IMG/VR virus record: IMGVR_UViG_3300008255_000257
Span: 1 to 36,793 of that record
Direction: 5' to 3' (one strand)
From: a virus
Taxonomy: Duplodnaviria > Caudoviricetes
Length of the DNA stretch: 36,793 bases
The notes beneath the pieces were generated by a model. That model had not been told where the DNA came from, did no database searches, and worked only from the letters and a program-made list of their open reading frames with translations. Numbering within the stretch: the stretch's first letter is position 1; every line of letters begins with the position of its first letter. This document shows, in pieces, positions 1 to 36,793 of this stretch. The translations under genes were made by a program, and so were the position numbers.

Positions 1-1188
1 AATACCGACGTTGCCGTCGTTGGCTATTGTCAAAAGCTGAGAATAGGAAGGTGAGCCAGAAGATATATCGAATCCGCTTGCACGTTCTATATAAAATTTA
101 GAAGTATCCGTTTTTATCTGAAACGCAGTGGCATTATTTCCACTACCAGTAGTTCTAAAAAATGCAAGTCTTGGATTTTGGTCTGTTGTCGAGGGAATTA
201 CAACTCTAGATTCATCCCAACCAGAATCTGATAAGAAATCAGCGATACCAAAAGGATTATTTGTCCCTTGTGAAGGTGAGCCTACAACTATGCTCCCATT
301 TACATCGAGTTTTCTCTGAGGTGCCGTCGTCCCGATACCGACGTTGCCACCGTTTTTGATTGTCACATAGTTATTAATTTCCCCTGTTGACAAATATCGC
401 CCAAAAGTTAAATCTATTTCATTATTTGCTGTAGTTTTACTTTGGATAAATGAACCATCATGAGAAGATAAAGCACCAGATGCGCCCCAAGTTCCTAACC
501 TTATCAAAGAATATGTATTTGCTGTACCAACTCCGTTGTTCAAAATGTCCAGCCCACCAGTATAAGTCCTAACATCAACCGCACTATTATCCGTATTATC
601 ATATAAAGACAATTTAGACACCGGACTCACCGTCCCTATACCGACGTTGCCTGAGGTGTTGATTGTTAGAAACGGGTTCGTTCCACAGGTTGTACCATCT
701 CCTATTTGAAAGAGGTCGTCATCGACACTATCAGCATCTTCTGTTACGCCTGTCCAAAAATCCGTATCAGTTGCAGTGGTGACATCGTAAATTAAACAAG
801 GGTCGGCTTTTTTAATTGTGATGTTTCCTGCTGAAGAAGCGGAGATTGTGATTGTACCAGTATCTATATTGTCAAAATAACCGTTTGCCCAGCGGACACC
901 AGAAGAGCCTATGTCGTCAGTGGAGTCTGTATCGCTTATTAGAGAAGTGTTTATGGCCACGGAGGCTAGATTAGACAATGCTGTATTTGCTCCGGTGCCT
1001 GCAGGGGTATCATATGAGTAAGTAAAAGGCGAATCGTCAGAAATCTTTAAGTATTTTCCAACATCGCCAGCTGTAGCGGTGCCTTTACCTGTGCCTCCTT
1101 GAAATGGAAAAAGCACGGTGGCGGCTTGGCTGATTCCGAAAGTTAATAAAAATCCTAAGACAATAATTCCTATGTATTTTTTTTTCAT
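1..1188 (-). CDS. GNVGIG-repeat fibre/adhesin-like protein, N-terminal part (runs off window start), with predicted Sec signal peptide
   Basis: Not in the ORF track because there is no stop in the window. Hand translation from ATG 1188: MKKKYIGIIVLGFLLTFGISQA-ATVLFPFQGGTG...ANTALSNLASVAINTSLISDTDSTDDIGSSGVRWANGYFDNI...GNVGIGT; three in-frame GNVGI repeats. Confidence 0.85.
   Translation of the reverse strand, partial: MKKKYIGIIVLGFLLTFGISQAATVLFPFQGGTGKGTATAGDVGKYLKISDDSPFTYSYDTPAGTGANTALSNLASVAINTSLISDTDSTDDIGSSGVRWANGYFDNIDTGTITISASSAGNITIKKADPCLIYDVTTATDTDFWTGVTEDADSVDDDLFQIGDGTTCGTNPFLTINTSGNVGIGTVSPVSKLSLYDNTDNSAVDVRTYTGGLDILNNGVGTANTYSLIRLGTWGASGALSSHDGSFIQSKTTANNEIDLTFGRYLSTGEINNYVTIKNGGNVGIGTTAPQRKLDVNGSIVVGSPSQGTNNPFGIADFLSDSGWDESRVVIPSTTDQNPRLAFFRTTGSGNNATAFQIKTDTSKFYIERASGFDISSGSPSYSQLLTIANDGNVGI
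5..651 (-). repeat. Dispersed in-frame repeat GGCAACGTCGG(T/C)ATNGGGA encoding GNVGIG, at 5-15, 338-348 and 641-651 (4th copy 36768-36778)
   Basis: Plus-strand ccgacgttgcc is identical in all four copies; spacings are 303 and 333 bp and the intervening sequences are unrelated. Confidence 0.9.
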
Positions 1189-18693: not shown

Positions 18694-21231
18694 TTAATAA
18701 GGATCAAAGTTATTATTAGCAATATCACTAGCACCCGAGCTACCGGAAGGCGCGTTGTTGCGCTCGCGGAGTTGGAAAGGGATATGTTTTGGTTCGTGAA
18801 GGATGAGTCGGTGGAGGTTCTCCGGCATGTGGTCATTCTTGTCTTTCGGCCGACCGGATTTTTGTTTATCGTCTGCGCTAGTGCCTTTATATTCGGCCCA
18901 GACATATTCTTCTAGTTGTTTAATTGTAACAGGGCAGGAGTCAAAAATAAAGATTTCTGGTTCTTTTACGAATTTTCCGGCTTTAATTTCATAATCAAAG
19001 GCATCTTCTAGGCGTTTTATACCGGCCATGAGGTCTTTACTACCTTTAATCCAACGCTCCCGAGAGATATCTACTATTTGGCTTCCTACACTTGGCTCTT
19101 TTGTATGCTGGTTATCATTAAAAGCTGAAGGATCAATGATTCTGTCTTCAATGCGAAAGTGCATTTTTGTTTCCAGTTCTATCATTCTTGAGTTGAGCAT
19201 TTTTACTAAGCCTTCAGATAGAAGTTCGGCGGTTACTATTTTAGTACCTTTACTATTGACAGAAAGATACAAAACATGGTCTTGAACTCTGGGGTGCGGA
19301 TCGAGCGCTTTGTATGTTGTCCAGTCTTTTTCGTTGATAGGAAAAGGTTTTATGACATGAATTTTTCTATTAAATCTTTTATGTACTCTACCGAGTAAAT
19401 GGCCAAATTTTCCAAATATGCGCGCTTCTTTTTCATCTTCCGGCATAGAATCAGACATTCTTTGAATTGCTTTATGATCTAGAATTCCTCTTACTCCGTG
19501 GATTTTACAGTTACCAGTAATAAGAGGATATTTTTCTGTTTTATCCCTCACAATAATTGTTTCATTATCAACAGAAACACAAGACACTATCCCATTATAA
19601 AAAACCTTCTTTATACCTCTATCCACATAGGAATATCTATGTTTAAGAGCTGAAACACAATACATATCAGCACAAAAATATTTTCTACCCATTATAAATC
19701 TTTCCCCTTGCTTCCACTTTCTTAGAGAGGCTCTATACCCTAATCTTATCAGTAATTCTTGAACATCATCAGCTAGTTGTTTAGAGGAAGTTAAATATCT
19801 TTTTTTAGAATCTCCATCGGTAATTAAAAGTGTCTCCCAAAGTAATTGAAGATATTCTTTTGGGTACTCAAAAACATACCTTGGTATATGTTTTTGCGCC
19901 GAATTTCCTAAGGAAAAAAGATTTTGGTGTAATTCTTTACTAGATAACCAATATTCATATTTTCTTTCTCGCCAAGCCCATTTAGTTTTATCCAATAACT
20001 CCTTTAATTTCTTTCTTTTTTCTATGTGTTTTTGAGTAATATAAATACCATAATGCTTTTGGGTGCTTCCCTTAGTGCCAGTAGCACAACCCTCAGAAAT
20101 ATACCAACCTAAGAATTCACACCAATCTTTTCCACTAATTTTGTCAGGAAAAGGGGAATCAAATCGAGTTGCCACATAACCATTTTCGGAAAAATTTAGC
20201 ATTCGGACTCCACGACGCAAAGTGTCAGCTCGCCTTATTTCTAAAGGCATATTTTTTATTGTTCTTTTTTCTCCTAAATCACTATTAAAAGTAACCATTC
20301 TATGATCGGGAGTGAAAAGAAGACCGTCTCCAGTAGAAATAAGTTCCCCAGAGAAATTTTTTTTAACTAATTCATTTACTTTTTGATATTCAATTAGTCT
20401 ATTTTTTAAATTATAGGTGGCTACTATATCCCCAATCTGAACCTTGTCTAAATCTCTCCAGCCTTGATATGTCAATATTTCTGCGTTATCGGCAAGACAA
20501 GCATCTTCTACTTCCGCTTCCACATATTCCGCTTCATCCGGGTGTTCGTCCATCCAGTCTTTTACCCAGCCGGCTTGAAATAGAGGCGTATAAGTCCAGA
20601 AACATATCATTCCCATACGACCTCGAGCAAGAGAGGCGAGAAATCTATCTTTAGGAAGAGGCTCATCAATCCAAAGAAATCCCAGATCAACGGATTCAAA
20701 GCTTTTCAGATCCTGTTCGTTACTCATTACGTCAATAGTCCAGCCGTTGTTGAAGATAAACTTTGAAGCATAATACTTTCCTTCTTTGGAAGTTTCATAT
20801 AGTTTCTCAGGGAAATTTTTATATGTGTTTCTTGGAAGCCATTTTATCAGCTCTGGTATTATTTTTTCTTTAATAGTTGTTGGATCAGAAATAACACGGC
20901 CACGCTTTATATATGGAAATTGTTGAAAAAGAGGATGTTTGAACCATTTATTCTGTGGACCAAAGATGATATTTGCCACAATATTAGATCCTACGGCCGT
21001 TTTACCTACCCCGTTAGCTCCAATAAACATGTTTACAAATTTAGAATCAGAGCCGACGAGTTTAATAAACTTCTCCACCTTGCCGTTTGGTGTATAATAC
21101 TGCGCGGCTTCCATAGCATCACGTTGTTCCAACTCCTCAGCCATTTCAGCTATTTCAGTCAGCTCTTCTTCCGGCAATTCTTCAAGCCGTTTTCGTATTG
21201 TATCTATTGAACTTAATATTTCTTCTTGCAT
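18694..21231 (-). CDS. terL: Terminase large subunit, intein-containing
   Basis: Walker A GANGVGKT, Walker B FLWIDE, coupling motif TYTP, and nuclease residues ALDPH...NDHMPENL. Confidence 0.9.
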   Translation of the reverse strand: MQEEILSSIDTIRKRLEELPEEELTEIAEMAEELEQRDAMEAAQYYTPNGKVEKFIKLVGSDSKFVNMFIGANGVGKTAVGSNIVANIIFGPQNKWFKHPLFQQFPYIKRGRVISDPTTIKEKIIPELIKWLPRNTYKNFPEKLYETSKEGKYYASKFIFNNGWTIDVMSNEQDLKSFESVDLGFLWIDEPLPKDRFLASLARGRMGMICFWTYTPLFQAGWVKDWMDEHPDEAEYVEAEVEDACLADNAEILTYQGWRDLDKVQIGDIVATYNLKNRLIEYQKVNELVKKNFSGELISTGDGLLFTPDHRMVTFNSDLGEKRTIKNMPLEIRRADTLRRGVRMLNFSENGYVATRFDSPFPDKISGKDWCEFLGWYISEGCATGTKGSTQKHYGIYITQKHIEKRKKLKELLDKTKWAWRERKYEYWLSSKELHQNLFSLGNSAQKHIPRYVFEYPKEYLQLLWETLLITDGDSKKRYLTSSKQLADDVQELLIRLGYRASLRKWKQGERFIMGRKYFCADMYCVSALKHRYSYVDRGIKKVFYNGIVSCVSVDNETIIVRDKTEKYPLITGNCKIHGVRGILDHKAIQRMSDSMPEDEKEARIFGKFGHLLGRVHKRFNRKIHVIKPFPINEKDWTTYKALDPHPRVQDHVLYLSVNSKGTKIVTAELLSEGLVKMLNSRMIELETKMHFRIEDRIIDPSAFNDNQHTKEPSVGSQIVDISRERWIKGSKDLMAGIKRLEDAFDYEIKAGKFVKEPEIFIFDSCPVTIKQLEEYVWAEYKGTSADDKQKSGRPKDKNDHMPENLHRLILHEPKHIPFQLRERNNAPSGSSGASDIANNNFDPY
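19510..20499 (-). mobile_element. 330-aa intein with LAGLIDADG homing endonuclease in TerL
   Basis: N-terminal CLADNAEILTYQGW, block B TPDHRM, LAGLIDADG motifs FLGWYISEG and LLITDGD, C-terminal ...LITGN followed by +1 Cys. Confidence 0.9.
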
Positions 21232-22582: not shown

Positions 22583-22819
22583 TTATAATTCCTTAAACGC
22601 ATCAGGACTTGAATCTTTTCCTCGATATTTACCAGTGTACTCCATTTCTCCATTTTCACTCCCTTCTTTGTGTTTTATGTACCCCTCTCGAATATAAAAA
22701 TTCACTTCTGCCCTACTTAAAACTAGAGGGTACCCGCCGAACATTATCCAGTTATTAGGTTGTACTTTATAATCCATAAATATTAATACCGGCAGCATGA
22801 TCAACTTCATGCTGTACAA
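22583..22819 (-). CDS. Hypothetical protein (start uncertain)
   Basis: ORF following def. Confidence 0.45.
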   Translation of the reverse strand: MYSMKLIMLPVLIFMDYKVQPNNWIMFGGYPLVLSRAEVNFYIREGYIKHKEGSENGEMEYTGKYRGKDSSPDAFKEL

Positions 22820-23228
22820 TAAACGCGTCGATCTCTTTGAAAGTCCTCCGGCGCGGGATCAGAAAGAGGTTGAAAAGGGGGGTTTGGTAGGTTACGGTGA
22901 TCTTGGCGAATCTATCTACTTCTTTCTCGGACCGGTACATGAAGCTCATACAGCCCTCAGAAAAGGTACAAGGTTGCTCTTTTTTGACTATCCTGGCGTT
23001 TATTACGCACCAGTGACCGAATGTTCGTATTTTCTTCTTATTCACCACAAAGAAGACTTTGGGGCTTTCTGAGACCTGTGTATGGGATATAGCGAAGGCG
23101 TCTTTCCAGTTGCCTTCAAATTCCTTAGCATCCAGGAAGGCTTTTAACTCTAGTGCCTCCTCTTTAATCTCAGACCATCTTTGTACCTTTTCTGATATTT
23201 TATTACTTAGGGGTTTTAGTATTTTCAT
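22767..23228 (-). CDS. def: Peptide deformylase (short viral type)
   Basis: EGCMS (motif 2), QHEVDH (motif 3), degenerate motif 1 AFAISHTQV, INARI. Confidence 0.85.
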   Translation of the reverse strand: MKILKPLSNKISEKVQRWSEIKEEALELKAFLDAKEFEGNWKDAFAISHTQVSESPKVFFVVNKKKIRTFGHWCVINARIVKKEQPCTFSEGCMSFMYRSEKEVDRFAKITVTYQTPLFNLFLIPRRRTFKEIDAFIVQHEVDHAAGINIYGL

Positions 23229-24764: not shown

Positions 24765-25823
24765 TTATTCTTCTTCTTTTTCCTCACTGATCTCCACTTC
24801 TTTATTTTCTTTATTTGGAAGCATGAGGTCTTTTTTTATTAAATCAACAATTTTTTCAGCGGTTTTAGGGTTTTCTTTCAGAAATATTCTTGCTTTATCA
24901 TAGCCAACTCCTAGCCTTATTTCTACTTTATCCTCAATAAAGAGATAGGAATGGCCAGATTTGGTGATGATTTTATATTTTTCTCCAAGGGCGAGAATCT
25001 CTCCTTGCTTTGAGATACCTTCACCATACATAATATCAAATTCTGTTTGGCGGAAAGGAGGAGCAACTTTATTTTTAGTTACTTTTACCCTTGTTCTATT
25101 TCCAACAGTTTCCTCTCCCTTTTTTATTTGTGCAAGTCTGCGCATATCCAGACGAACGGAACTATAGAATTTTAAGGCCTTGCCTCCAGTTGTAAACTCT
25201 GTGGGACCATACATCTGACCAATCATTTGGCGGATTTGGTTTAAGAAAATTACTACAGTTTTTGAATTACTGATTAAAGGTATAAGCTTACGCAGGCCAT
25301 GGGACATTAGTTTTGCGTGTCGGCCGACTTGAGGATCTCCCATATCTCCTTCTATTTCTGCTTTAGGGACCAAAGAAGCTACGGAATCAATTACCACTAC
25401 CGCGAACTTTCCAGTACGCACAAAGCTCTCTACTATCTCTAAGGCCTGCTCTCCGTTCTCTGGTTGGCTGATTAAGAGGTCTTTAGTGCTTACCCCTATC
25501 TTAGAGGCATATTCGGGGTCTAACGCGTGTTCTGTGTCAATATAGGCACAAAGACCACCTGATTTTTGAGCCTCTGCTACTGTATGCAGAGCTAGGGTTG
25601 TTTTACCAGACATTTCTGGGCCATATATTTCAACTACGCGTCCACGCGGAAATCCTCCTATTCCAAGCGCCATATCTAATCCAAATGAACCGGAGGGAAT
25701 AGAATCAATATCCATCGCTGTTTGGTTTAATTTCATTACACTATCTTCTCCAAACTTCTTTTTTATTTCCTTTATTGCATCATCTACACTTGCACCTATT
25801 TCTTTTTTTGATTTTTCTTTCAT
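24765..25823 (-). CDS. recA: Recombinase RecA
   Basis: [73 protein letters not shown]. Start is 25823 or 25859. Confidence 0.97.
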
Positions 25824-25842
25824 GTTCTTGCTTTTTAAATTT

Positions 25843-26298
25843 TTAATATTGAATTTCATTTTCTCTACCCTCAACTAGTTTTTTATTTAATTTCATAAAC
25901 TCAGTGATGGCATAATATGGGCTAACTTTTTCTCTTGACCTTTCTTCTAGGGCTTGGAATTCTTTTTCTCCAAGCCACATCAGCATATAGTCTTTATATA
26001 TTCCCTTTTTGTTTATTTCCCAGATTGCATGACATTCGGTACAGAGGGTTATACAGTTTTCCGGATCATATCTAGTAGCATATATTGTCCGACCAAAATA
26101 ATGAGAACAACCAAGGAATCTTGTTGAACCGCAAGCTACACATTGACTGTCCCTTTTTCTTATTTCTAAGGAAAATCTATGATCAGCTTCTTGAACCTGC
26201 CAGACATCTTTTATTTCTCCGGTAACTTCACGGAAATTTCTCATGCGTTTAAAAGCTTTTAGGGTAGAATTTTTAGTTTTAAATGGTGTTTTTTTCAT
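25843..26298 (-). CDS. NinG/Rap-like HNH recombination endonuclease
   Basis: [17 protein letters not shown]...CSHYFGR...[16 protein letters not shown]; likely start 26298. Confidence 0.8.
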
Positions 26299-29833: not shown

Positions 29834-32800
29834 CTAATCTACTTCATTTTGTGCAAGTTTTTTAAGTTGTTTATACACATCATCAGTAATTATTTTCTTT
29901 TTTCTGAGCTCTTTTATGTAGGCGTTTTTTTCTTCCGGTGTTTTCATATCCTTTGTTTGCTCGAAGATATATTCTGCGCGTTCACCATTTTCTACGCCCA
30001 TGTTTCTGATTTCAATATCTTCTTCGGTGATGCCAAGTTCTTCATCTTCTTTTAGTTTTTTTATTCTTCTATATAAAGGCGGATCATTTTCTTTGTATTC
30101 TTTCATTATTGCGTTGGCTTCGTCTTTTGGAAGCGCTTTCAGCCTCTCAAATTCTTTTTCAGCTTCTGATACTTCTTCTCCGATAAATTGTCTTACCACG
30201 GATGGCTTCAATGTATTTCCGAGCTTTCCTACTCCGCGAATTTTGTCGTCTTGTGTCCGGTCTCCGGTTGCTAGTGAGATTCCTATTTGCTTCAAAGCCA
30301 CGGAAATATCGCCGACAAGAGACATCAGAGGCGGTTCCGATGTGTATAGAGTAGGATCAAGCGCCCCGATGATAGAGAGCGAATCACGCGCCGCTTTCCA
30401 AGCCACTTCTTCCATGAAGTTTCTGTCCTTTCTGCGCTTTTTTCTTTCCATAAATTCGTAGGTGGCGAAAACGATGGTGGCCGTTAGTAAAACAGCTCTT
30501 AATGTCTCCCTTCCCTCCCGAGAATTAAGTGGCACTTTGCGGGTTGTTAGTTTTCCGATGTCTGAGAGTGTTGTTGAGATGATAGGCAATGCCCAGCTCT
30601 TAAACTGCGTGTATCCTTTTCCTATCGCGGTCTGGCCATAAATTGCTTTTGTCCCCATGCCACCGGTAGGCAACTGCCGCGCCATACCTTTTTTAATAAG
30701 CGCGAGCCGGTCAAGGTCTATGGCTCCCGAGGTCCATTCTGCCTTACTCATTGAGCCAAGGAGAAAAATAGAGTTAGCGTTGCGCGAGGCGTTTGAGAAA
30801 AGTCCGTATAATCCGACTTCCACTTTATCCCCAAAGCGCGCGGCCGCATCAAGGAAGGGCTGTCTAGCCAGTTCTCCCACCAGCGCTTCGTATTTCTTCG
30901 CCACGGCGCGTCCTTTGGGAGTCGCAAAGCGTTTTACTCCCAGCGCATACATTTTCTCTCCCAACCCCTTATAAACAAGCACTTGCGCGCCGGCTTGCGA
31001 GGTAAGTCCGACAGGGATATTAAATCCGAGAAAGAGTAATCGGGTAAAAGCTGTGCCGGTTCTCACCACCCAATCTAATTTACCTCCGGGCTTCAAGAAA
31101 GCGCGATCGGTTACACGTCCTTTTTGCGTGTTCATAAATTCCTTATAGAAACTCTTTAGTTGAGCGTCAAATTCCAGTCCTCGCGCGGTTGTCGCTAGAG
31201 AGTTTACAGAGTCAATGATTGCTTGATATTTTGGAAAGATAACATCCATGGCGCGCTTGCGGTTGAGCACCTCTTTATAAATCATATATGCCCTTGCGAC
31301 ATTTTTTGAAGGCACGAGCTGTCCTGTGCGCTTCATAGAAAATTGAAACCATTTTTCAAGAGGCAAGACTTCGCCTGTGCGCTGGTTCAAGATACCCGCT
31401 ACCGCTTCATCTTGCTTATACCTATCGAGAAATTCCCTGAAAGCCGCGCGCGCGCCTCTACCTGATCTTCTCCAGAATCCCGGCTTCTCTCCGGAAACCA
31501 CCCCGGCGACATAAGTCCCTTCCTCTTTCCATGCTTCTAAGAATGAGCGACGAATATGTGTGATATAATTTTTTACATATCGTGTCAAGGTGCCCTTTCG
31601 CAGGAGGTCGTCTCGCTCCTTTGCTAAGTCTTTCCAAATCCATTGCGCCGCCTTCAACTCAGCTGGGGTCATATCCTTTGCATATAATAGCTTGTCTTCC
31701 GGTCCAGCGGATAGCCAACGATAAGCAAGATCGTCTGTCGGAACGAGCCGTTCTACAAGCCCTCGTTTGCGAGATTTTCGTGCCGCCTTAAAGAGTTCAT
31801 TGACCGTCTCCCGCGCTTCAAGCGTTGCCATACTGGACGCTAAATCCGCTTTGTATATGTCGTGGATCATTACTTCAAAGAGCGGATTTTGACGTACAAG
31901 AGCGTTGCCCCCCATGTAGTTCCACTTTTCGTCGTGTTGGATGCTTGTCAATTCAGAAAGTTTAACCGGTGGTTTTCCTTCCAAGGCCCGCAATTTATTA
32001 ATGTCTTCAAGCGAGCGAGCAACTGCTTCTCTTCGTGTAAAGATACCGGCGAGGCTAGTGTTTTTGAGAGTCTGGAGCGTTCTCGGACCAAGAAAGACGT
32101 CTCCCTTTTCAAATTGTCGCAGGAATTCATCAAACTCTCTCATCTGATCAATAGTCATTTTTTCAAAGGAGTTCGGCATTTTGAGGAGTTTGCGGGCGTT
32201 TTCCCACTTTTTTAATTCCAAGTCGTTGATAGTGGCTTGCAGGGCAATACGCGCTTGGCGGTGGAGTTCCCTTTTTTCCAGGTAACCAGCCATGTATCCC
32301 TTAAAGGTTTCAGTGTTGAGAGCGTAGATTTCATCGTCTGTTAATTCTTCCAGCGCTTTTCGGGCGTTGGTTCTTTGTTCAAGAGCAAGCGTTTCCAAGA
32401 GTTCGGCTTTTTTCATCAGGGCGAGTTCTGCGCGCTTGGCAGTTGCCATTTTTTCCAACGCCTTCCTTTCTCTGGCTGTAGTGAGATATTTTTCTATTTC
32501 TTCTCTTATGACATCCGGGTCGTCAAACTTCCCAGACAATTCTGGTCTGTCTTCAAAGGCGCTTTCAACCGCTCTGGTTACTTTTAAATTTCTTGCTTTT
32601 ATTGCTTCTCTTTGGCGTTCAGTGTATTTAAATTTACCCATACTATCCACAGCGTCAGGGTTCTTTAATTCTTCAAATTGCCCTTCTTTTTTAGATTGAA
32701 ATTTGATTAGTTTCTTACCGGGCATAGTGTCCTCTACTTCTCTGATAATTTCCAGTTGGACCTTGATGTCATCCAACTCTTTAGAAGCTTTTCCAATATC

Positions 32801-35119
32801 ACGAGGACCCAGCGCCTTTATTTTGCTTCCGAGTTCTTCAAGCTGTTTTGTCGTTATATCTTTAACTTCGTCTAACTCTTTCTGCACTCTCGGCCCAAAA
32901 TCCTCCCCAGCCCGAGCTCGAGCAGCCGCACTCTCCACCGCTCCAGCCGTGCCTTTTTTAGGAAACTTTGGTGGTGTGGTGGCGATGAATTCTTCGGCGG
33001 ATTTTGGTTTTACTGCTTCCACCCCATCCCACTCTGCTCTTAGTTGGGAGCGTGTTTTGATTACATCTGGATTAAATACTGCATAGTGTGTTGAAGGTCT
33101 ATTATATAAGCCAACAGCGTCATCTATGTTTTTTATTTTAAGCCCAGTTTTGTTTAGTTTTCTAGCTTTTTCAACTTGTTGACTTAACCAACTATCAATA
33201 TCTCCGTCTTGTCCTAATTCTTGTGGTGTTTTTCCTTTAGCATCAACTTCCAAGAAATCCCCTTTAATTGATACATCTTTAACTTTTGCATTTACTCTGC
33301 GGTCGTATGTTGCATCATACCCACCCAAATCGTCTATCTTTTGTGTCAACTCATCCACTTTCAACCAGTCGGAGTTTTTGCCACTTTTTTGTGCAATCTT
33401 TTCAAGTGCGGCGTGTTGTTTCATTAGTTTATTTATTGGACCAGTTTCGGCGGCATATATAGAATATGCTTTAGCAGTAGCAGGGTCATCAGTAAACCAA
33501 AACGCCCCCTTTGCACTTTGAGCATCTGTAATACTACCCTTAAAAGAATCACTAAACTTTTCAAAATCTGCGGCAGTTCCGTGATAAGCATTTATTTCCC
33601 CCTTCACCCACTCATCAAAAGATTGGCCAGAAGCTTTGGCTTTGGAGATGGAGGTAGAAAGCTCTGTTTTAGGCACAATCGCTGTTTCTGGGACAGTTTT
33701 TGGCGTTTCCCGCACACTAAAAGGCTCGCTCCCCCTAGTTTCCCCGTTAGCGGTGGCTTTTGATATTTCTTTTGGTTTAAAAAGCGGATTTTGTTTACCA
33801 TTGATAGTTTCTATTTCTTCTATCCTAACATTAATTTGATTTTTAGTACCAACTCTTTCTATTTTTATCATATCACCCATTTTCTGTTTCTCAAAAATAT
33901 ACTTATCCTCACTAAAGAATCTTTGACTTGCTTCTGAATTTTGTCTTCCTTTTATGCCATCTTCAAAAATATTATCTACAATAACAGTGAAAGGTAAAGT
34001 TTCTCCGTCTTTCGGCCTTACTTTGTATAAGTTAGGAGGGTCTATTACTTTATATTCCGCATTGGTTAAATTAGTTTTTACAACATCTCCCACTTTAGGC
34101 ATAATCGATGTCTCCGGCGAAGGTATTTCCACCGGCTTGATTGTGTTTGTTTTAGGATCATAGAAGCCGGAGGGTTGGGGAGCAGGCAGGGCAGTTTCTG
34201 ATTGTCTGGCTATGAAGGTCGCCGCTTCACCTCTTATGGCGGTTTCTACTCCCTCAGCTGTCGTGGCTTTTGCTACGTTATGAGCTGCGGCTTGAGCTAA
34301 TTCTTCCGGTAGGCCATACCTTATCATCGTAACCCTCGCTAGGTCGTCTGTGGTAGCTTCTATGAGTTCTTTTAGGGCTATTGAGGTCAGCTTACCTTTT
34401 CCACCTGGAAACCAGGCATCAGCCACGAATCCGGCTATTGCTAGCGTGATGCCGAGGTTGTTTTTTTCCCATGGAGTTGCTATTGGACTTTTTCTTACGA
34501 AGCCGTCTATGTCTTCCTTAATGTTCTGCCAAGATTTTGGTTTGTGTTTAAATAAAATATCCTCTATGCTTTTATATGTTTCAATATCTTTATAGACTAA
34601 AGTTTCTTGTTTAAAAGATTTTTCTGCATCTAATACTCGTTCTGTTTTTGGCTTTCCTATTCTTGAAGTATCTGTCAGGGCTTGTCTGATTGCTTCTTTA
34701 CTCGTATCTACTCCGAGAAGTTGCGCCGCTTGTTTATAGGGAGAATATTTAGAAGTGTAGGCGGCTTCTAGTATTGTTTTTCCGACAGAGGAAAATCCTC
34801 CTAAAATTAATCTAGGAAAGTCCACAGTCACGGCTTTAGCTATTTTAGCCGGTTGTTCTATAAGTTCTGTCACAGCTTGTTGTCCGGTAGTTTGTTTACT
34901 TCTTCTTTGGGCTTGGCTTTCAAAAAAAGCGCTTATTCCAGTTGCCACAGCTTCTGGTGTTTTTGTCAAGGTTGTAGAAACAAGACCTCCAGGTACGAAG
35001 GGTTCCGGTGGAGCGCTCATATCAAAAACGGGGATGGGCGGAGTTTCAATAAAGAATTTCTCCTTTACCTTGCTTCCCAGTTTCTTTATTTCATCCCTTA
35101 TGTCAAAAAGTTGTGGCAT
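29834..35119 (-). CDS. Large polyvalent internal virion/ejection protein with ADP-ribosyltransferase-like domain
   Basis: 1761 aa, largely helical; AYHGTAADFEKF...GAFWFTDDPATAKAY...YAVFNPDVIK resembles ART-PolyVal. Confidence 0.7.
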   Translation of the reverse strand: MPQLFDIRDEIKKLGSKVKEKFFIETPPIPVFDMSAPPEPFVPGGLVSTTLTKTPEAVATGISAFFESQAQRRSKQTTGQQAVTELIEQPAKIAKAVTVDFPRLILGGFSSVGKTILEAAYTSKYSPYKQAAQLLGVDTSKEAIRQALTDTSRIGKPKTERVLDAEKSFKQETLVYKDIETYKSIEDILFKHKPKSWQNIKEDIDGFVRKSPIATPWEKNNLGITLAIAGFVADAWFPGGKGKLTSIALKELIEATTDDLARVTMIRYGLPEELAQAAAHNVAKATTAEGVETAIRGEAATFIARQSETALPAPQPSGFYDPKTNTIKPVEIPSPETSIMPKVGDVVKTNLTNAEYKVIDPPNLYKVRPKDGETLPFTVIVDNIFEDGIKGRQNSEASQRFFSEDKYIFEKQKMGDMIKIERVGTKNQINVRIEEIETINGKQNPLFKPKEISKATANGETRGSEPFSVRETPKTVPETAIVPKTELSTSISKAKASGQSFDEWVKGEINAYHGTAADFEKFSDSFKGSITDAQSAKGAFWFTDDPATAKAYSIYAAETGPINKLMKQHAALEKIAQKSGKNSDWLKVDELTQKIDDLGGYDATYDRRVNAKVKDVSIKGDFLEVDAKGKTPQELGQDGDIDSWLSQQVEKARKLNKTGLKIKNIDDAVGLYNRPSTHYAVFNPDVIKTRSQLRAEWDGVEAVKPKSAEEFIATTPPKFPKKGTAGAVESAAARARAGEDFGPRVQKELDEVKDITTKQLEELGSKIKALGPRDIGKASKELDDIKVQLEIIREVEDTMPGKKLIKFQSKKEGQFEELKNPDAVDSMGKFKYTERQREAIKARNLKVTRAVESAFEDRPELSGKFDDPDVIREEIEKYLTTARERKALEKMATAKRAELALMKKAELLETLALEQRTNARKALEELTDDEIYALNTETFKGYMAGYLEKRELHRQARIALQATINDLELKKWENARKLLKMPNSFEKMTIDQMREFDEFLRQFEKGDVFLGPRTLQTLKNTSLAGIFTRREAVARSLEDINKLRALEGKPPVKLSELTSIQHDEKWNYMGGNALVRQNPLFEVMIHDIYKADLASSMATLEARETVNELFKAARKSRKRGLVERLVPTDDLAYRWLSAGPEDKLLYAKDMTPAELKAAQWIWKDLAKERDDLLRKGTLTRYVKNYITHIRRSFLEAWKEEGTYVAGVVSGEKPGFWRRSGRGARAAFREFLDRYKQDEAVAGILNQRTGEVLPLEKWFQFSMKRTGQLVPSKNVARAYMIYKEVLNRKRAMDVIFPKYQAIIDSVNSLATTARGLEFDAQLKSFYKEFMNTQKGRVTDRAFLKPGGKLDWVVRTGTAFTRLLFLGFNIPVGLTSQAGAQVLVYKGLGEKMYALGVKRFATPKGRAVAKKYEALVGELARQPFLDAAARFGDKVEVGLYGLFSNASRNANSIFLLGSMSKAEWTSGAIDLDRLALIKKGMARQLPTGGMGTKAIYGQTAIGKGYTQFKSWALPIISTTLSDIGKLTTRKVPLNSREGRETLRAVLLTATIVFATYEFMERKKRRKDRNFMEEVAWKAARDSLSIIGALDPTLYTSEPPLMSLVGDISVALKQIGISLATGDRTQDDKIRGVGKLGNTLKPSVVRQFIGEEVSEAEKEFERLKALPKDEANAIMKEYKENDPPLYRRIKKLKEDEELGITEEDIEIRNMGVENGERAEYIFEQTKDMKTPEEKNAYIKELRKKKIITDDVYKQLKKLAQNEVD

Positions 35120-35445: not shown

Positions 35446-36264
35446 TTATAAATAACTCGGGCAAAACTTTTGATAAAGATTTTTTTCCACAAATACAATA
35501 GAATTGGCGTATGATAATGTAGTTTCCAACCACGCATGCCTAAGTTGATTTTTCAAAGACACAATATCTGCCCCTCGAAGCAACATATTGGCGGTCATTG
35601 ATGCTCGGAGAAGGTGGGGAAATACTCGCTTAATAATTCCTGCTCTCTTGGAAATCACTTTGACCCATTTTCTCACATCCCCTGTAGCTAGTCTGTTTTT
35701 CTTTTGCAGGGTGGTAAATAAATAATCATCTTGCCCTCTTGGAAATTCGTTTAGATATTTGATGAGTATTTCAGTGCATTCTGGAGCGATTTGAGAGATA
35801 CCGTCTTTTAGCCCTTTGCCATTTATTACTCTTACAGCGTTTTGGGTGATGAGCACGTCTTTAACCTTCAACCGGCAGATTTCTAAATTCCTAATGCCGG
35901 AGTAAGCCAACAAAGACAGAAGTGCTTTTTGCCGAATATCTCGACAGTTGAAAATCATTGTCGTAATTTCCGCTTCAGTCAGAGTATTTTTAATTATCGG
36001 GCGAGGTCTTTTCTGTCTGCCAAATCTCACTGGTCTATCGATAAACTTCATATACTTTTCCACTCCAAGCATTGTGTTAAGTTTATGTGAATAAGAATAT
36101 CCCGAAGTGTACATTGCGCAGATATATTTTTCTGCTTCATCCACTGTGGGATAATCTCCTAAAACTTTCGACATTCTTCGATACGAGCCGACATAACTTT
36201 CTACCGTAACCATTTGTAATCCCTCACGAGCAATTAAAAACTGCTCAAATGCTTCTTTTTGCAT
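35446..36264 (-). CDS. Tyrosine recombinase (XerC/D-like size, no arm-binding domain)
   Basis: Catalytic set SGIR, GKGLK, HLLR, LRH and Y in ETTLSY; 272 aa. Confidence 0.92.
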   Translation of the reverse strand: MQKEAFEQFLIAREGLQMVTVESYVGSYRRMSKVLGDYPTVDEAEKYICAMYTSGYSYSHKLNTMLGVEKYMKFIDRPVRFGRQKRPRPIIKNTLTEAEITTMIFNCRDIRQKALLSLLAYSGIRNLEICRLKVKDVLITQNAVRVINGKGLKDGISQIAPECTEILIKYLNEFPRGQDDYLFTTLQKKNRLATGDVRKWVKVISKRAGIIKRVFPHLLRASMTANMLLRGADIVSLKNQLRHAWLETTLSYANSIVFVEKNLYQKFCPSYL

Positions 36265-36265
36265 A

Positions 36266-36368
36266 TAGTTTCTACGAAAAACTACTATTAAAAGTGGAAG
36301 AGCGACATATTCGTAGTATGTCGCCCAAGTTACCCTCCCCGACGGGAGACCACTTGGACATTATACCA
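36266..36368 (-). promoter_or_regulatory. Recombinase promoter and highly structured leader with complementary hairpin loops
   Basis: TGGTATAAT at 36368-36360; stems 36292-97/36350-55, 36302-09/36317-24 and 36266-71/36279-84; loops CUACGAA and UUCGUAG. Confidence 0.7.
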
Positions 36369-36418
36369 ATTCTATTGTATTTGTAAAAGAACAGCCAGTT
36401 TATAGACTTGTTTAGGTC

Positions 36419-36793
36419 TTAATTAGCCTGCAAAGGCGAAACTTGATACCACACCGAGCCGTTGGAAGCGACCACAACCACATCATCGGCTGTCATTACA
36501 ACATCCGCTCCACCTGCGGACTTGAATAAAGCATTGTTGTCTAAGGTTATGTTGTTTGCTCCTGTGTTGATTACAGTCATTATGCACCCGGTGTTGGCGG
36601 CCGCCGGAGCGGTAAATGTGTTGGTAGTGCCAGTTGTTACTGCTCCTGCAGAGGTGATTTGCTTAATGGTCCCACAGCCATCAGCTGTAATTGTGTTGCC
36701 TGCGGCGATAGTTTGGGCAGAAGGAGGATTAACAACGAATTTCCCTGCTGGAGCAGTGTTCCCGATGCCGACGTTGCCTTCCACTGTTAGCCC
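36419..36793 (-). CDS. C-terminal part of the GNVGIG-repeat fibre/adhesin-like protein (5' truncated by window end)
   Basis: Open to the window end: GLTVEGNVGIGNTAPAGKF...VINTGANNITL...SNGSVWYQVS; in frame with 1..1188 if the ends are joined. Confidence 0.8.
   Translation of the reverse strand, partial: GLTVEGNVGIGNTAPAGKFVVNPPSAQTIAAGNTITADGCGTIKQITSAGAVTTGTTNTFTAPAAANTGCIMTVINTGANNITLDNNALFKSAGGADVVMTADDVVVVASNGSVWYQVSPLQAN

What the first reader, a model, noticed from the sequence alone, without database searches (positions are those of the whole stretch)
36266..36357. Recombinase leader with two hairpins whose 7-nt loops are perfectly complementary
Seen: GCGACAUA-[CUACGAA]-UAUGUCGC and UAGUUU-[UUCGUAG]-AAACUA, the latter ending 1 nt before the AUG. 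The first lies in a three-way junction closed by AAGUGG/CCACUU, with a CUCCC/GGGAG arm and an alternative CCAAGU/ACUUGG pairing. Inference A: a kissing-loop/pseudoknot RNA switch controlling recombinase translation, or an RNA cofactor. Inference B: at DNA level GCGACATA-N7-TATGTCGC is a tyrosine-recombinase core site (attP/dif-like CATA..TATG arms, 7-bp overlap).
Basis: partly seen in the sequence, partly recalled or inferred. Interest (0 to 1): 0.72.

Follow-up and report, generated by a model that had tools for sequence, protein, structure and literature searches.

The report
Kissing-loop leader of fibre-linked recombinase
In this uncultured groundwater phage and its relatives, the message for a DNA-recombining enzyme starts with a folded RNA whose two hairpin tips stay exactly complementary while their letters change, and this pairing likely locks the start codon away to ration an enzyme that probably reshuffles the phage's host-recognition fibres.

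Summary
The region is a roughly 90-nt 5' leader between a strong promoter match and a tyrosine recombinase gene. All 18 related leaders keep a 6-7 nt perfect match between the two hairpin loops, across 13 different loop sequences (0 of 200,000 permutations). Two were found by patterns blind to the loops. Stems tolerate G-U pairs on the sense strand (17 versus 1 A-C), so the structure is RNA. Inference B (DNA att core) fails: arms and spacer are not conserved and no partner site was found. No Rfam family matches. Window genes lack Shine-Dalgarno sites (0 of 35), and hairpin 2 covers or abuts the AUG; in one relative its loop is the AUG. The kiss therefore most likely represses translation; the trigger is unknown. 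The recombinase family sits beside GNVGIGT-repeat fibre genes (47 of 93 loci; control 1 of 63), whose modules differ between near-identical relatives at those repeats. This scan earlier noted that fibre link, and other kissing-loop leaders, on other DNA; I found no note of this leader. Nothing is tested experimentally.

The parts
36360..36387 (-). Sigma-70-type promoter match, TTTACA-16-TATAAT with extended -10 TG; predicted start about 36353-36355
   Evidence: a similar -10 box lies at a similar distance in most of the 18 leaders; start not mapped
36350..36355 (-). P1 5' strand (closes the three-way junction), at the predicted 5' end of the transcript
   Evidence: 5 of 5 pairs show two-sided changes, 78.8% of cells paired
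36334..36349 (-). P2 hairpin with conserved G-(A/U)-C-G tetraloop
   Evidence: inner 3 pairs 100% paired; tetraloop in 16 of 18 leaders (L004 and L110 differ)
36327..36333 (-). J2/3 junction strand with conserved YAAY
   Evidence: AA invariant in alignment A2
36300..36326 (-).
   Evidence: 11 of 11 pairs with two-sided changes, 91.3% paired; G-U 17 vs A-C 1 in 16 stems
36310..36316 (-). Kissing loop L3 (CUACGAA)
36292..36297 (-). P1 3' strand
36265..36285 (-). P4 hairpin (hairpin 2), AU-rich, abutting the start codon
36272..36278 (-). Kissing loop L4 (UUCGUAG), complementary to L3
36352..36359 (-). Upstream strand of the alternative helix (pairs with 36330-36323); would be complete only in read-through transcripts
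   Evidence: support mixed
35446..36264 (-). 272-aa arm-less tyrosine recombinase with R125, K150, H217, R220, H243, Y252 invariant in 65 homologues
36419..36793 (-). 3' end of a fibre-like gene directly upstream (PF25692 domain), cut by the contig end
36758..36778 (-). GNVGIG-coding DNA repeat in the fibre gene, candidate exchange site; further copies at 328-348, 631-651 and, cut, at 1-15
1..1188 (-). 5' part of a tail-fibre-like gene, broken at a repeat; possibly the same gene as 36419-36793 across an assembly gap
   Evidence: the join is inferred, not shown

Best explanation
The region is a conserved structured 5' leader in front of a phage tyrosine recombinase gene, in which a hairpin loop in a three-way junction is complementary to the loop of a weak hairpin at the start codon, and this kiss likely holds the start region shut to keep translation of the recombinase low. 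Shown by sequence comparison: the four helices, the sense-strand RNA character, the loop-loop match, and the restriction to one recombinase clade. Inferred: transcription starts at P1; the junction (0-3 nt, 5-7 nt and about 2 nt strands) bends P3 back towards the foot of P1, where the start hairpin emerges; the kiss stabilises the start hairpin and blocks Shine-Dalgarno-independent initiation. Least certain is the release. My preferred route is that longer read-through transcripts from the fibre operon form an alternative helix that breaks the junction. The controlled enzyme is probably one that promotes exchange of fibre modules at GNVGIGT-coding repeats.
For: Loop match in 18 of 18 leaders, 13 distinct loops, 0 of 200,000 permutations. 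L182 and L194 were found with patterns containing no loop letters, and both carry new matched pairs ahead of the same recombinase family. Helix covariation score 0.69 vs 0.22 shuffled and at most 0.18 when slid (the alignment was fitted to this structure). G-U 17 vs A-C 1. In L182 the target loop is AUG-CAG, the start codon itself. The start hairpin ends between -7 and +10 of the AUG in all 18. Loop-to-loop distance is 36-46 nt in 16 of 18, which fits a cis contact. 0 of 35 window genes have an SD-like 4-mer. The motif lies in one clade (SH-aLRT 99; 17 of 23 rows, none of the other 70; quick tree). A kissing loop that stabilises a downstream hairpin to block translation has precedent in cobalamin riboswitches (PMC10327014, passages).
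Against: No expression, probing or reporter data. With the start set 7 nt after the -10 box, P1 is barely formed in 8 of 17 computed ensembles. Two loop pairs (AUAUAC) give only -3.1 kcal/mol as free duplexes. Five clade members with enough upstream DNA lack the motif (L034, L006, L105-L107). The alternative helix dominates the extended-transcript ensemble in only 3 of 13 co-oriented leaders, and its permutation test may be inflated by shared G+C content. In the ColIb-P9 repZ leader a loop pairing near the start activates translation (PMC8383071, passage), so the sign is inferred. Fibre-module breakpoints are spread across the repeat, not at one base.
Confidence: 0.7

Rival explanations
1. The kiss activates translation: pairing pries open or re-orients the start hairpin (as in the ColIb-P9 repZ pseudoknot), and the off state is the unkissed, zipped hairpin.
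For: Alone, hairpin 2 zips to a 3-4 nt loop in several leaders, so the kiss must open its tip. The repZ precedent.
Against: The P4 stem is conserved around a loop of exactly the matched length in most leaders. In L182 the kissed bases are the AUG itself, which cannot then be read.
Confidence: 0.1
2. The P1-P3 domain is a ligand- or protein-sensing aptamer. For example the recombinase binds P2, whose core CCGACG/CGUCGG repeats a hexamer of the fibre repeat, and so regulates its own synthesis through the kiss. This is compatible with the best explanation and differs only in the trigger.
For: Conserved tetraloop and junction letters. Similarity of the P1/P2 region to the fibre repeat exceeds shuffled sites in all but 61 of 3000 trials. 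Clade member L034 carries two inverted near-full copies of the repeat in its recombinase leader.
Against: The test was post hoc and rests mostly on one shared hexamer. L004 and L110 keep the kiss without the tetraloop. A variable second loop position is also typical of purely structural UNCG-like loops (recalled).
Confidence: 0.15
3. The P1-P3 domain is released as a small RNA that acts in trans on start hairpins (C4/CI-like), with variable loops defining specificity groups.
For: Cloverleaf-like domain at the predicted 5' end; high loop diversity; short U-runs follow P1 in many leaders.
Against: Tight cis spacing. No terminator-like site in the leader. No Rfam C4 match even at E up to 10. U-runs are absent in L110 and L194.
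Confidence: 0.08
4. DNA-level recombination core, or two inverted 7-bp overlaps flanking an invertible segment.
For: Perfect 8-bp inverted arms next to a recombinase gene.
Against: Arms are not conserved; spacer 6-8 nt; strand-specific wobbles; the two cores are only 31 bp apart with unlike arms; no partner found.
Confidence: 0.03

Closest known systems
Cobalamin riboswitch L5-L13 kissing loop (E. coli btuB, env8HyCbl; PMC10327014, passages read)
   Same: A loop from an upstream junction domain kisses the loop of a downstream hairpin and stabilises it, which blocks translation.
   Different: No cobalamin aptamer, no Rfam match; small three-way junction; fully variable loops; controls a recombinase; no SD sequence.
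IncI-alpha ColIb-P9 repZ pseudoknot and Inc antisense RNA (PMC8383071, one passage read)
   Same: A leader hairpin loop pairs in cis with a sequence next to the start, gating a DNA-transaction enzyme of a mobile element.
   Different: There the pairing activates and is blocked by an antisense RNA. Here the target is a conserved hairpin loop, and no antisense RNA is evident.
P1/P7 C4 and P4 CI cloverleaf RNAs (recalled, no paper read)
   Same: Three-stem junction with a tetraloop arm, and a loop complementary to a downstream translation region in a phage.
   Different: No match to the Rfam models; different tetraloop; target is a hairpin loop about 40 nt away; no icd/ant or kil genes seen.
Rin shufflon of Bifidobacterium prophages (PMC6109161, passages read)
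   Same: Arm-less tyrosine recombinase beside a receptor-binding gene, with short repeats inside that gene.
   Different: Rin inverts silent cassettes at an 11-bp asymmetric site. Here the repeats are direct, in frame and inside intact fibre genes, no silent inverted cassette array was seen, and the passages read mention no RNA leader.
XerA/XerD-type tyrosine recombinases
   Same: Best PDB matches are XerA (5hxy, E 6.7e-39) and 4a8e; catalytic residues invariant.
   Different: A separate family (178 representatives at E up to 1e-30) tied to fibre genes; no dif-like site identified.

Membership tests
Any Rfam 15 family | Score at or above the gathering threshold | tested here: not met
   0 hits in the window; best E 1.2-8, far below thresholds
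Cobalamin riboswitch | Match to a cobalamin aptamer model | tested here: not met
Cobalamin riboswitch (works-like) | Kissing loop between an upstream domain and a hairpin at the translation start | tested here: met
   covariation in 18 of 18 leaders; physical pairing not tested
Riboswitch in general | Direct binding of a small ligand changes expression | not testable with these tools
   needs in-line probing
C4/CI antisense RNA | Sequence and structure match to C4-type models | tested here: not met
C4/CI antisense RNA | Processed small RNA acting in trans | not testable with these tools
   needs transcript mapping
Tyrosine-recombinase DNA core site (attP/dif-like) | Arms conserved with the cognate recombinase, and a fixed spacer | tested here: not met
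Tyrosine-recombinase DNA core site (attP/dif-like) | Partner site with the same overlap | tested here: inconclusive
   none in the window or in 401 incomplete genomes; true host not held
Tyrosine recombinase (protein) | R-K-H-R-H/W-Y catalytic residues and PF00589 | tested here: met
Shufflon (Rin/Rci type) | Recombinase next to a receptor-binding gene that carries repeated sites | tested here: met
   47 of 93 vs 1 of 63 loci
Shufflon (Rin/Rci type) | Silent cassettes between inverted sites | tested here: not met
   in 14 loci inspected, repeats lay in frame in long ORFs on one strand, apart from the L034 leader copies
Shufflon (Rin/Rci type) | One fixed crossover position | tested here: inconclusive
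   breaks lie at repeats in 5 of 9 near-identical pairs, but are spread over about 15-25 nt

The most novel reading that the evidence does not exclude
A protein-free sensor of transcript origin that times genetic diversification. Transcripts from the local promoter fold into the kissed, silent form, whereas late read-through transcripts from the fibre operon refold the junction and release translation. The recombinase is then made only while fibre genes are expressed, and exchanges receptor-binding modules at the GNVGIGT repeats. It may also feed back by binding P2, an RNA echo of its DNA site.
Probability: 0.2. Interest if true: 0.82.

Novelty: new variant of a known kind. Interest (0 to 1): 0.63.

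Why it matters
It is an uncatalogued regulatory RNA with clean loop-loop covariation, from phages of probably Patescibacteria hosts whose genes lack Shine-Dalgarno sites. It suggests how translation can be gated without an SD to hide. It also ties that gate to a recombinase family linked to modular fibre genes across several phyla. If correct, the rate of host-range diversification is set by an RNA fold, and the natural loop pairs supply ready-made compensatory mutants and a small orthogonal translational lock.

Tried and rejected
Rfam: nothing at gathering, only chance hits by E-value. tRNA: none in the window. The window's loop looks like a tRNA-Arg(ACG) anticodon loop (recalled), but only 2 of 18 leaders have that loop, so tRNA mimicry and integration at an anticodon were dropped. 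Excess of the 7-mer in the window (8 vs 3.3 expected) includes the two loops themselves and was not pursued. Model R1 matched 1 of 151 genomes of the L110 phylum (L110's own) and 1 of 5 named genomes, so the motif was not found as a host motif in those searched. The model accepted four contigs, two already held (those of L010 and L002) and two new (L182, L194), all ahead of the recombinase. A weak hit at L004:5590-5705 (E 0.038) is not a leader and was dropped. No RNA holder listed. Contigs laid on both window ends showed no joint in the leader; hundreds of short pieces pile up on the fibre repeats, which shows a widely shared word, not shuffling. The careful tree did not finish; the quick tree is used. 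Literature searches found no description of this leader or of the repeat: (listings only). Term look-ups in PMC5737381 and PMC11109978 (main text) found no 'kissing' or 'recombinase'. The supplement of PMC5737381 could not be read; it describes many motifs and could bear on novelty. The family-C junction geometry is recalled; PMC3258123 passages confirm only that families A-C exist.

Full report
Observation. The finding lies on the minus strand, between the stop of a fibre-like gene (36419) and the AUG (36264) of a 272-aa PF00589 recombinase. Both hairpins, the exact loop complementarity, the P1 closure, the tetraloop arm and the alternative pairing are as described. A promoter match TTTACA-16-TATAAT with TG ends at 36360, so the leader would be about 89 nt and begin at P1. 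The genome is a virus record with portal, capsid, terminase-like and RecA genes. The host is inferred to be Patescibacteria from relatives: P0043 is named from Ca. Paceibacterota, and L106 and L110 lie in Patescibacteria bins.

Relatives. 103 full-length matches were parsed (part of the output was cut and partly reprinted). A systematic hairpin-pair screen, tetraloop search and inspection gave 16 leaders with the same plan. L004 and L110 were admitted on P3, P4 and the loop match, without the tetraloop. Two more (L182, L194) came from DNA patterns that contain no loop letters. In all 18, the P3 loop has a perfect 6-7 nt complement in the loop of a start-proximal hairpin (7 of 8 loop bases in L009). 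There are 13 distinct loops; cognate mean match is 6.4 nt versus 3.4 non-cognate; 2 of 156 non-cognate pairs reach 6 nt, both between two near-identical loops; 0 of 200,000 permutations reach the observed sum. On the model-fitted alignment, 24 of 26 pairs show two-sided changes (this leans towards the structure and includes one spurious row). In 16 P3 stems without bulges, non-Watson-Crick oppositions are G-U 17 times and A-C once, which points to RNA of the sense strand. On a quick tree the motif is confined to one clade: 17 of 23 rows (L194 left out as partial; L008 has only 76 nt upstream) and none of 70 others. The clade members without it include four loci whose neighbours do not look like virion genes. 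Every model-accepted leader lies ahead of this recombinase.

DNA-site reading. The arms occur only in the window's contig and L027 among 321 loci. The closest relative (78% protein identity) has different arms and a 6-nt spacer. There is no second copy in the window and none in 401 genomes (incomplete genomes, true host not held). Inference B is rejected.

Mechanism. None of 35 window genes has an SD-like 4-mer; upstream regions are A/T-rich. By inference, initiation depends on an unstructured start region. The start hairpin is AU-rich and weak (-1.2 to -10.2 kcal/mol for the 44-nt region) and ends between -7 and +10 of the AUG. In L182 its loop is the AUG plus the next codon. A kiss would add stability, as described for cobalamin riboswitches, where kissing stabilises P13 and prevents translation (PMC10327014, passages). 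P3 and P4 are only 13-17 nt apart in most leaders measured, so P3 must fold back. The junction strand lengths fit a family-C three-way junction that does this (geometry recalled, not confirmed in a paper read). The opposite sign has precedent in repZ (PMC8383071, passage) and is kept as a rival.

Trigger. Among 13 leaders co-oriented with upstream genes, cognate duplexes beat all 50,000 permutations; among 4 divergent leaders they do not (43,761 of 50,000). Per-locus shuffles give p below 0.05 in 6 of 13 versus 0 of 4. Against this, shared G+C may inflate the permutation test, and ensembles of extended transcripts favour the helix in only 3 of 13 (window, L027, L007). P1 is also barely formed in 8 of 17 short-transcript ensembles, which depends on the assumed start. 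A second lead: the P2 core shares a hexamer with the fibre repeat (61 of 3000 site shuffles score as high, post hoc), and L034 carries two inverted copies of that repeat in its leader. Both remain leads.

What the enzyme probably does. 47 of 93 distinct family loci have a GNVGIGT-type repeat within 3 kb, against 1 of 63 loci of distant tyrosine recombinases. Neighbouring genes match tail-fibre PHROGs. In 112 repeats the codons are skewed towards one DNA word, even in A/T-rich genes (for example GGC 76 vs 27.6 expected, GTC 71 vs 20.0, ACG 72 vs 23.8; repeats are not independent). By my reading, nine pairs share a block of at least 94% identity that includes the recombinase and then diverge; five diverge at a repeat and four do not. 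The last or first differing base falls at different places in the repeat, so homology-based exchange at a conserved word (this phage encodes RecA) is not excluded. The window's contig itself breaks at or beside repeats at both ends. I noted this link; an earlier unreviewed note (e1-10219343) reports the same on another genome and pointed me to the Rin shufflon paper (PMC6109161, passages).

Comparison and novelty. No Rfam family matches. Seven searches (listings only) and term look-ups in two motif-discovery papers found no description; one relevant supplement could not be read, and most subscription papers are not in the library. The element works like the cobalamin L5-L13 kiss but is not a member of that family. 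The scan has noted several other kissing-loop leaders in phages, mostly at terminators and none before a recombinase; look-ups by this sequence, protein and genome returned nothing.

Verdict. A real, uncatalogued kissing-loop RNA leader (existence about 0.95); translational repression in cis about 0.7; trigger open. New variant of a known kind; interest 0.63.

Noticed in passing
window 36758-36778, 631-651, 328-348, 1-15 (-); many loci: GNVGIGT-coding repeats share one DNA word with a short inverted repeat around 8 bp; the recombinase family sits beside such genes, and modules differ between near-identical relatives at the repeats. Hundreds of unrelated groundwater contigs share the word.
   Followed up: partly
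L034:3396-3500: Two inverted near-full copies of the fibre repeat enclose two small hairpins in the recombinase leader: a candidate invertible switch or an RNA stem that copies the DNA site.
   Followed up: partly
window 36398-36418 (-); also L026, L027, L033, L004: Conserved GAC-N7-9-GTC-WWTAAAC motif between the fibre stop codon and the promoter; variable spacer suggests a small hairpin; unexplained.
   Followed up: no
L059-L064, L125, L126, L128-L131, L134, L022 (100 nt before the AUG): The Acidobacteriota branch of the same recombinase family has a different conserved leader, ending in a hairpin that hides a GGAGG site; its loops are not clearly complementary.
   Followed up: no
L058:3978-3991: The target loop starts a Met-Gln-stop mini-ORF two bases before the real AUG.
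   Followed up: no
L004:3878-4003: Variant leader with a different tetraloop and an inserted hairpin, still keeping a 7-nt loop match over 72 nt.
   Followed up: partly
window 29834-35119 (-): 1761-aa polyvalent protein with an ART-PolyVal domain, directly downstream of the recombinase and a 107-aa gene.
   Followed up: no
window 18694-21231, 22767-23228, 24765-25874 (-): Terminase-like ORF with a LAGLIDADG-like stretch (possible intein), a peptide deformylase and a full RecA in a 37-kb phage.
   Followed up: no
L040 versus L048: Recombinases 91% identical but in opposite orientation relative to the fibre gene, with flanks rearranged.
   Followed up: no
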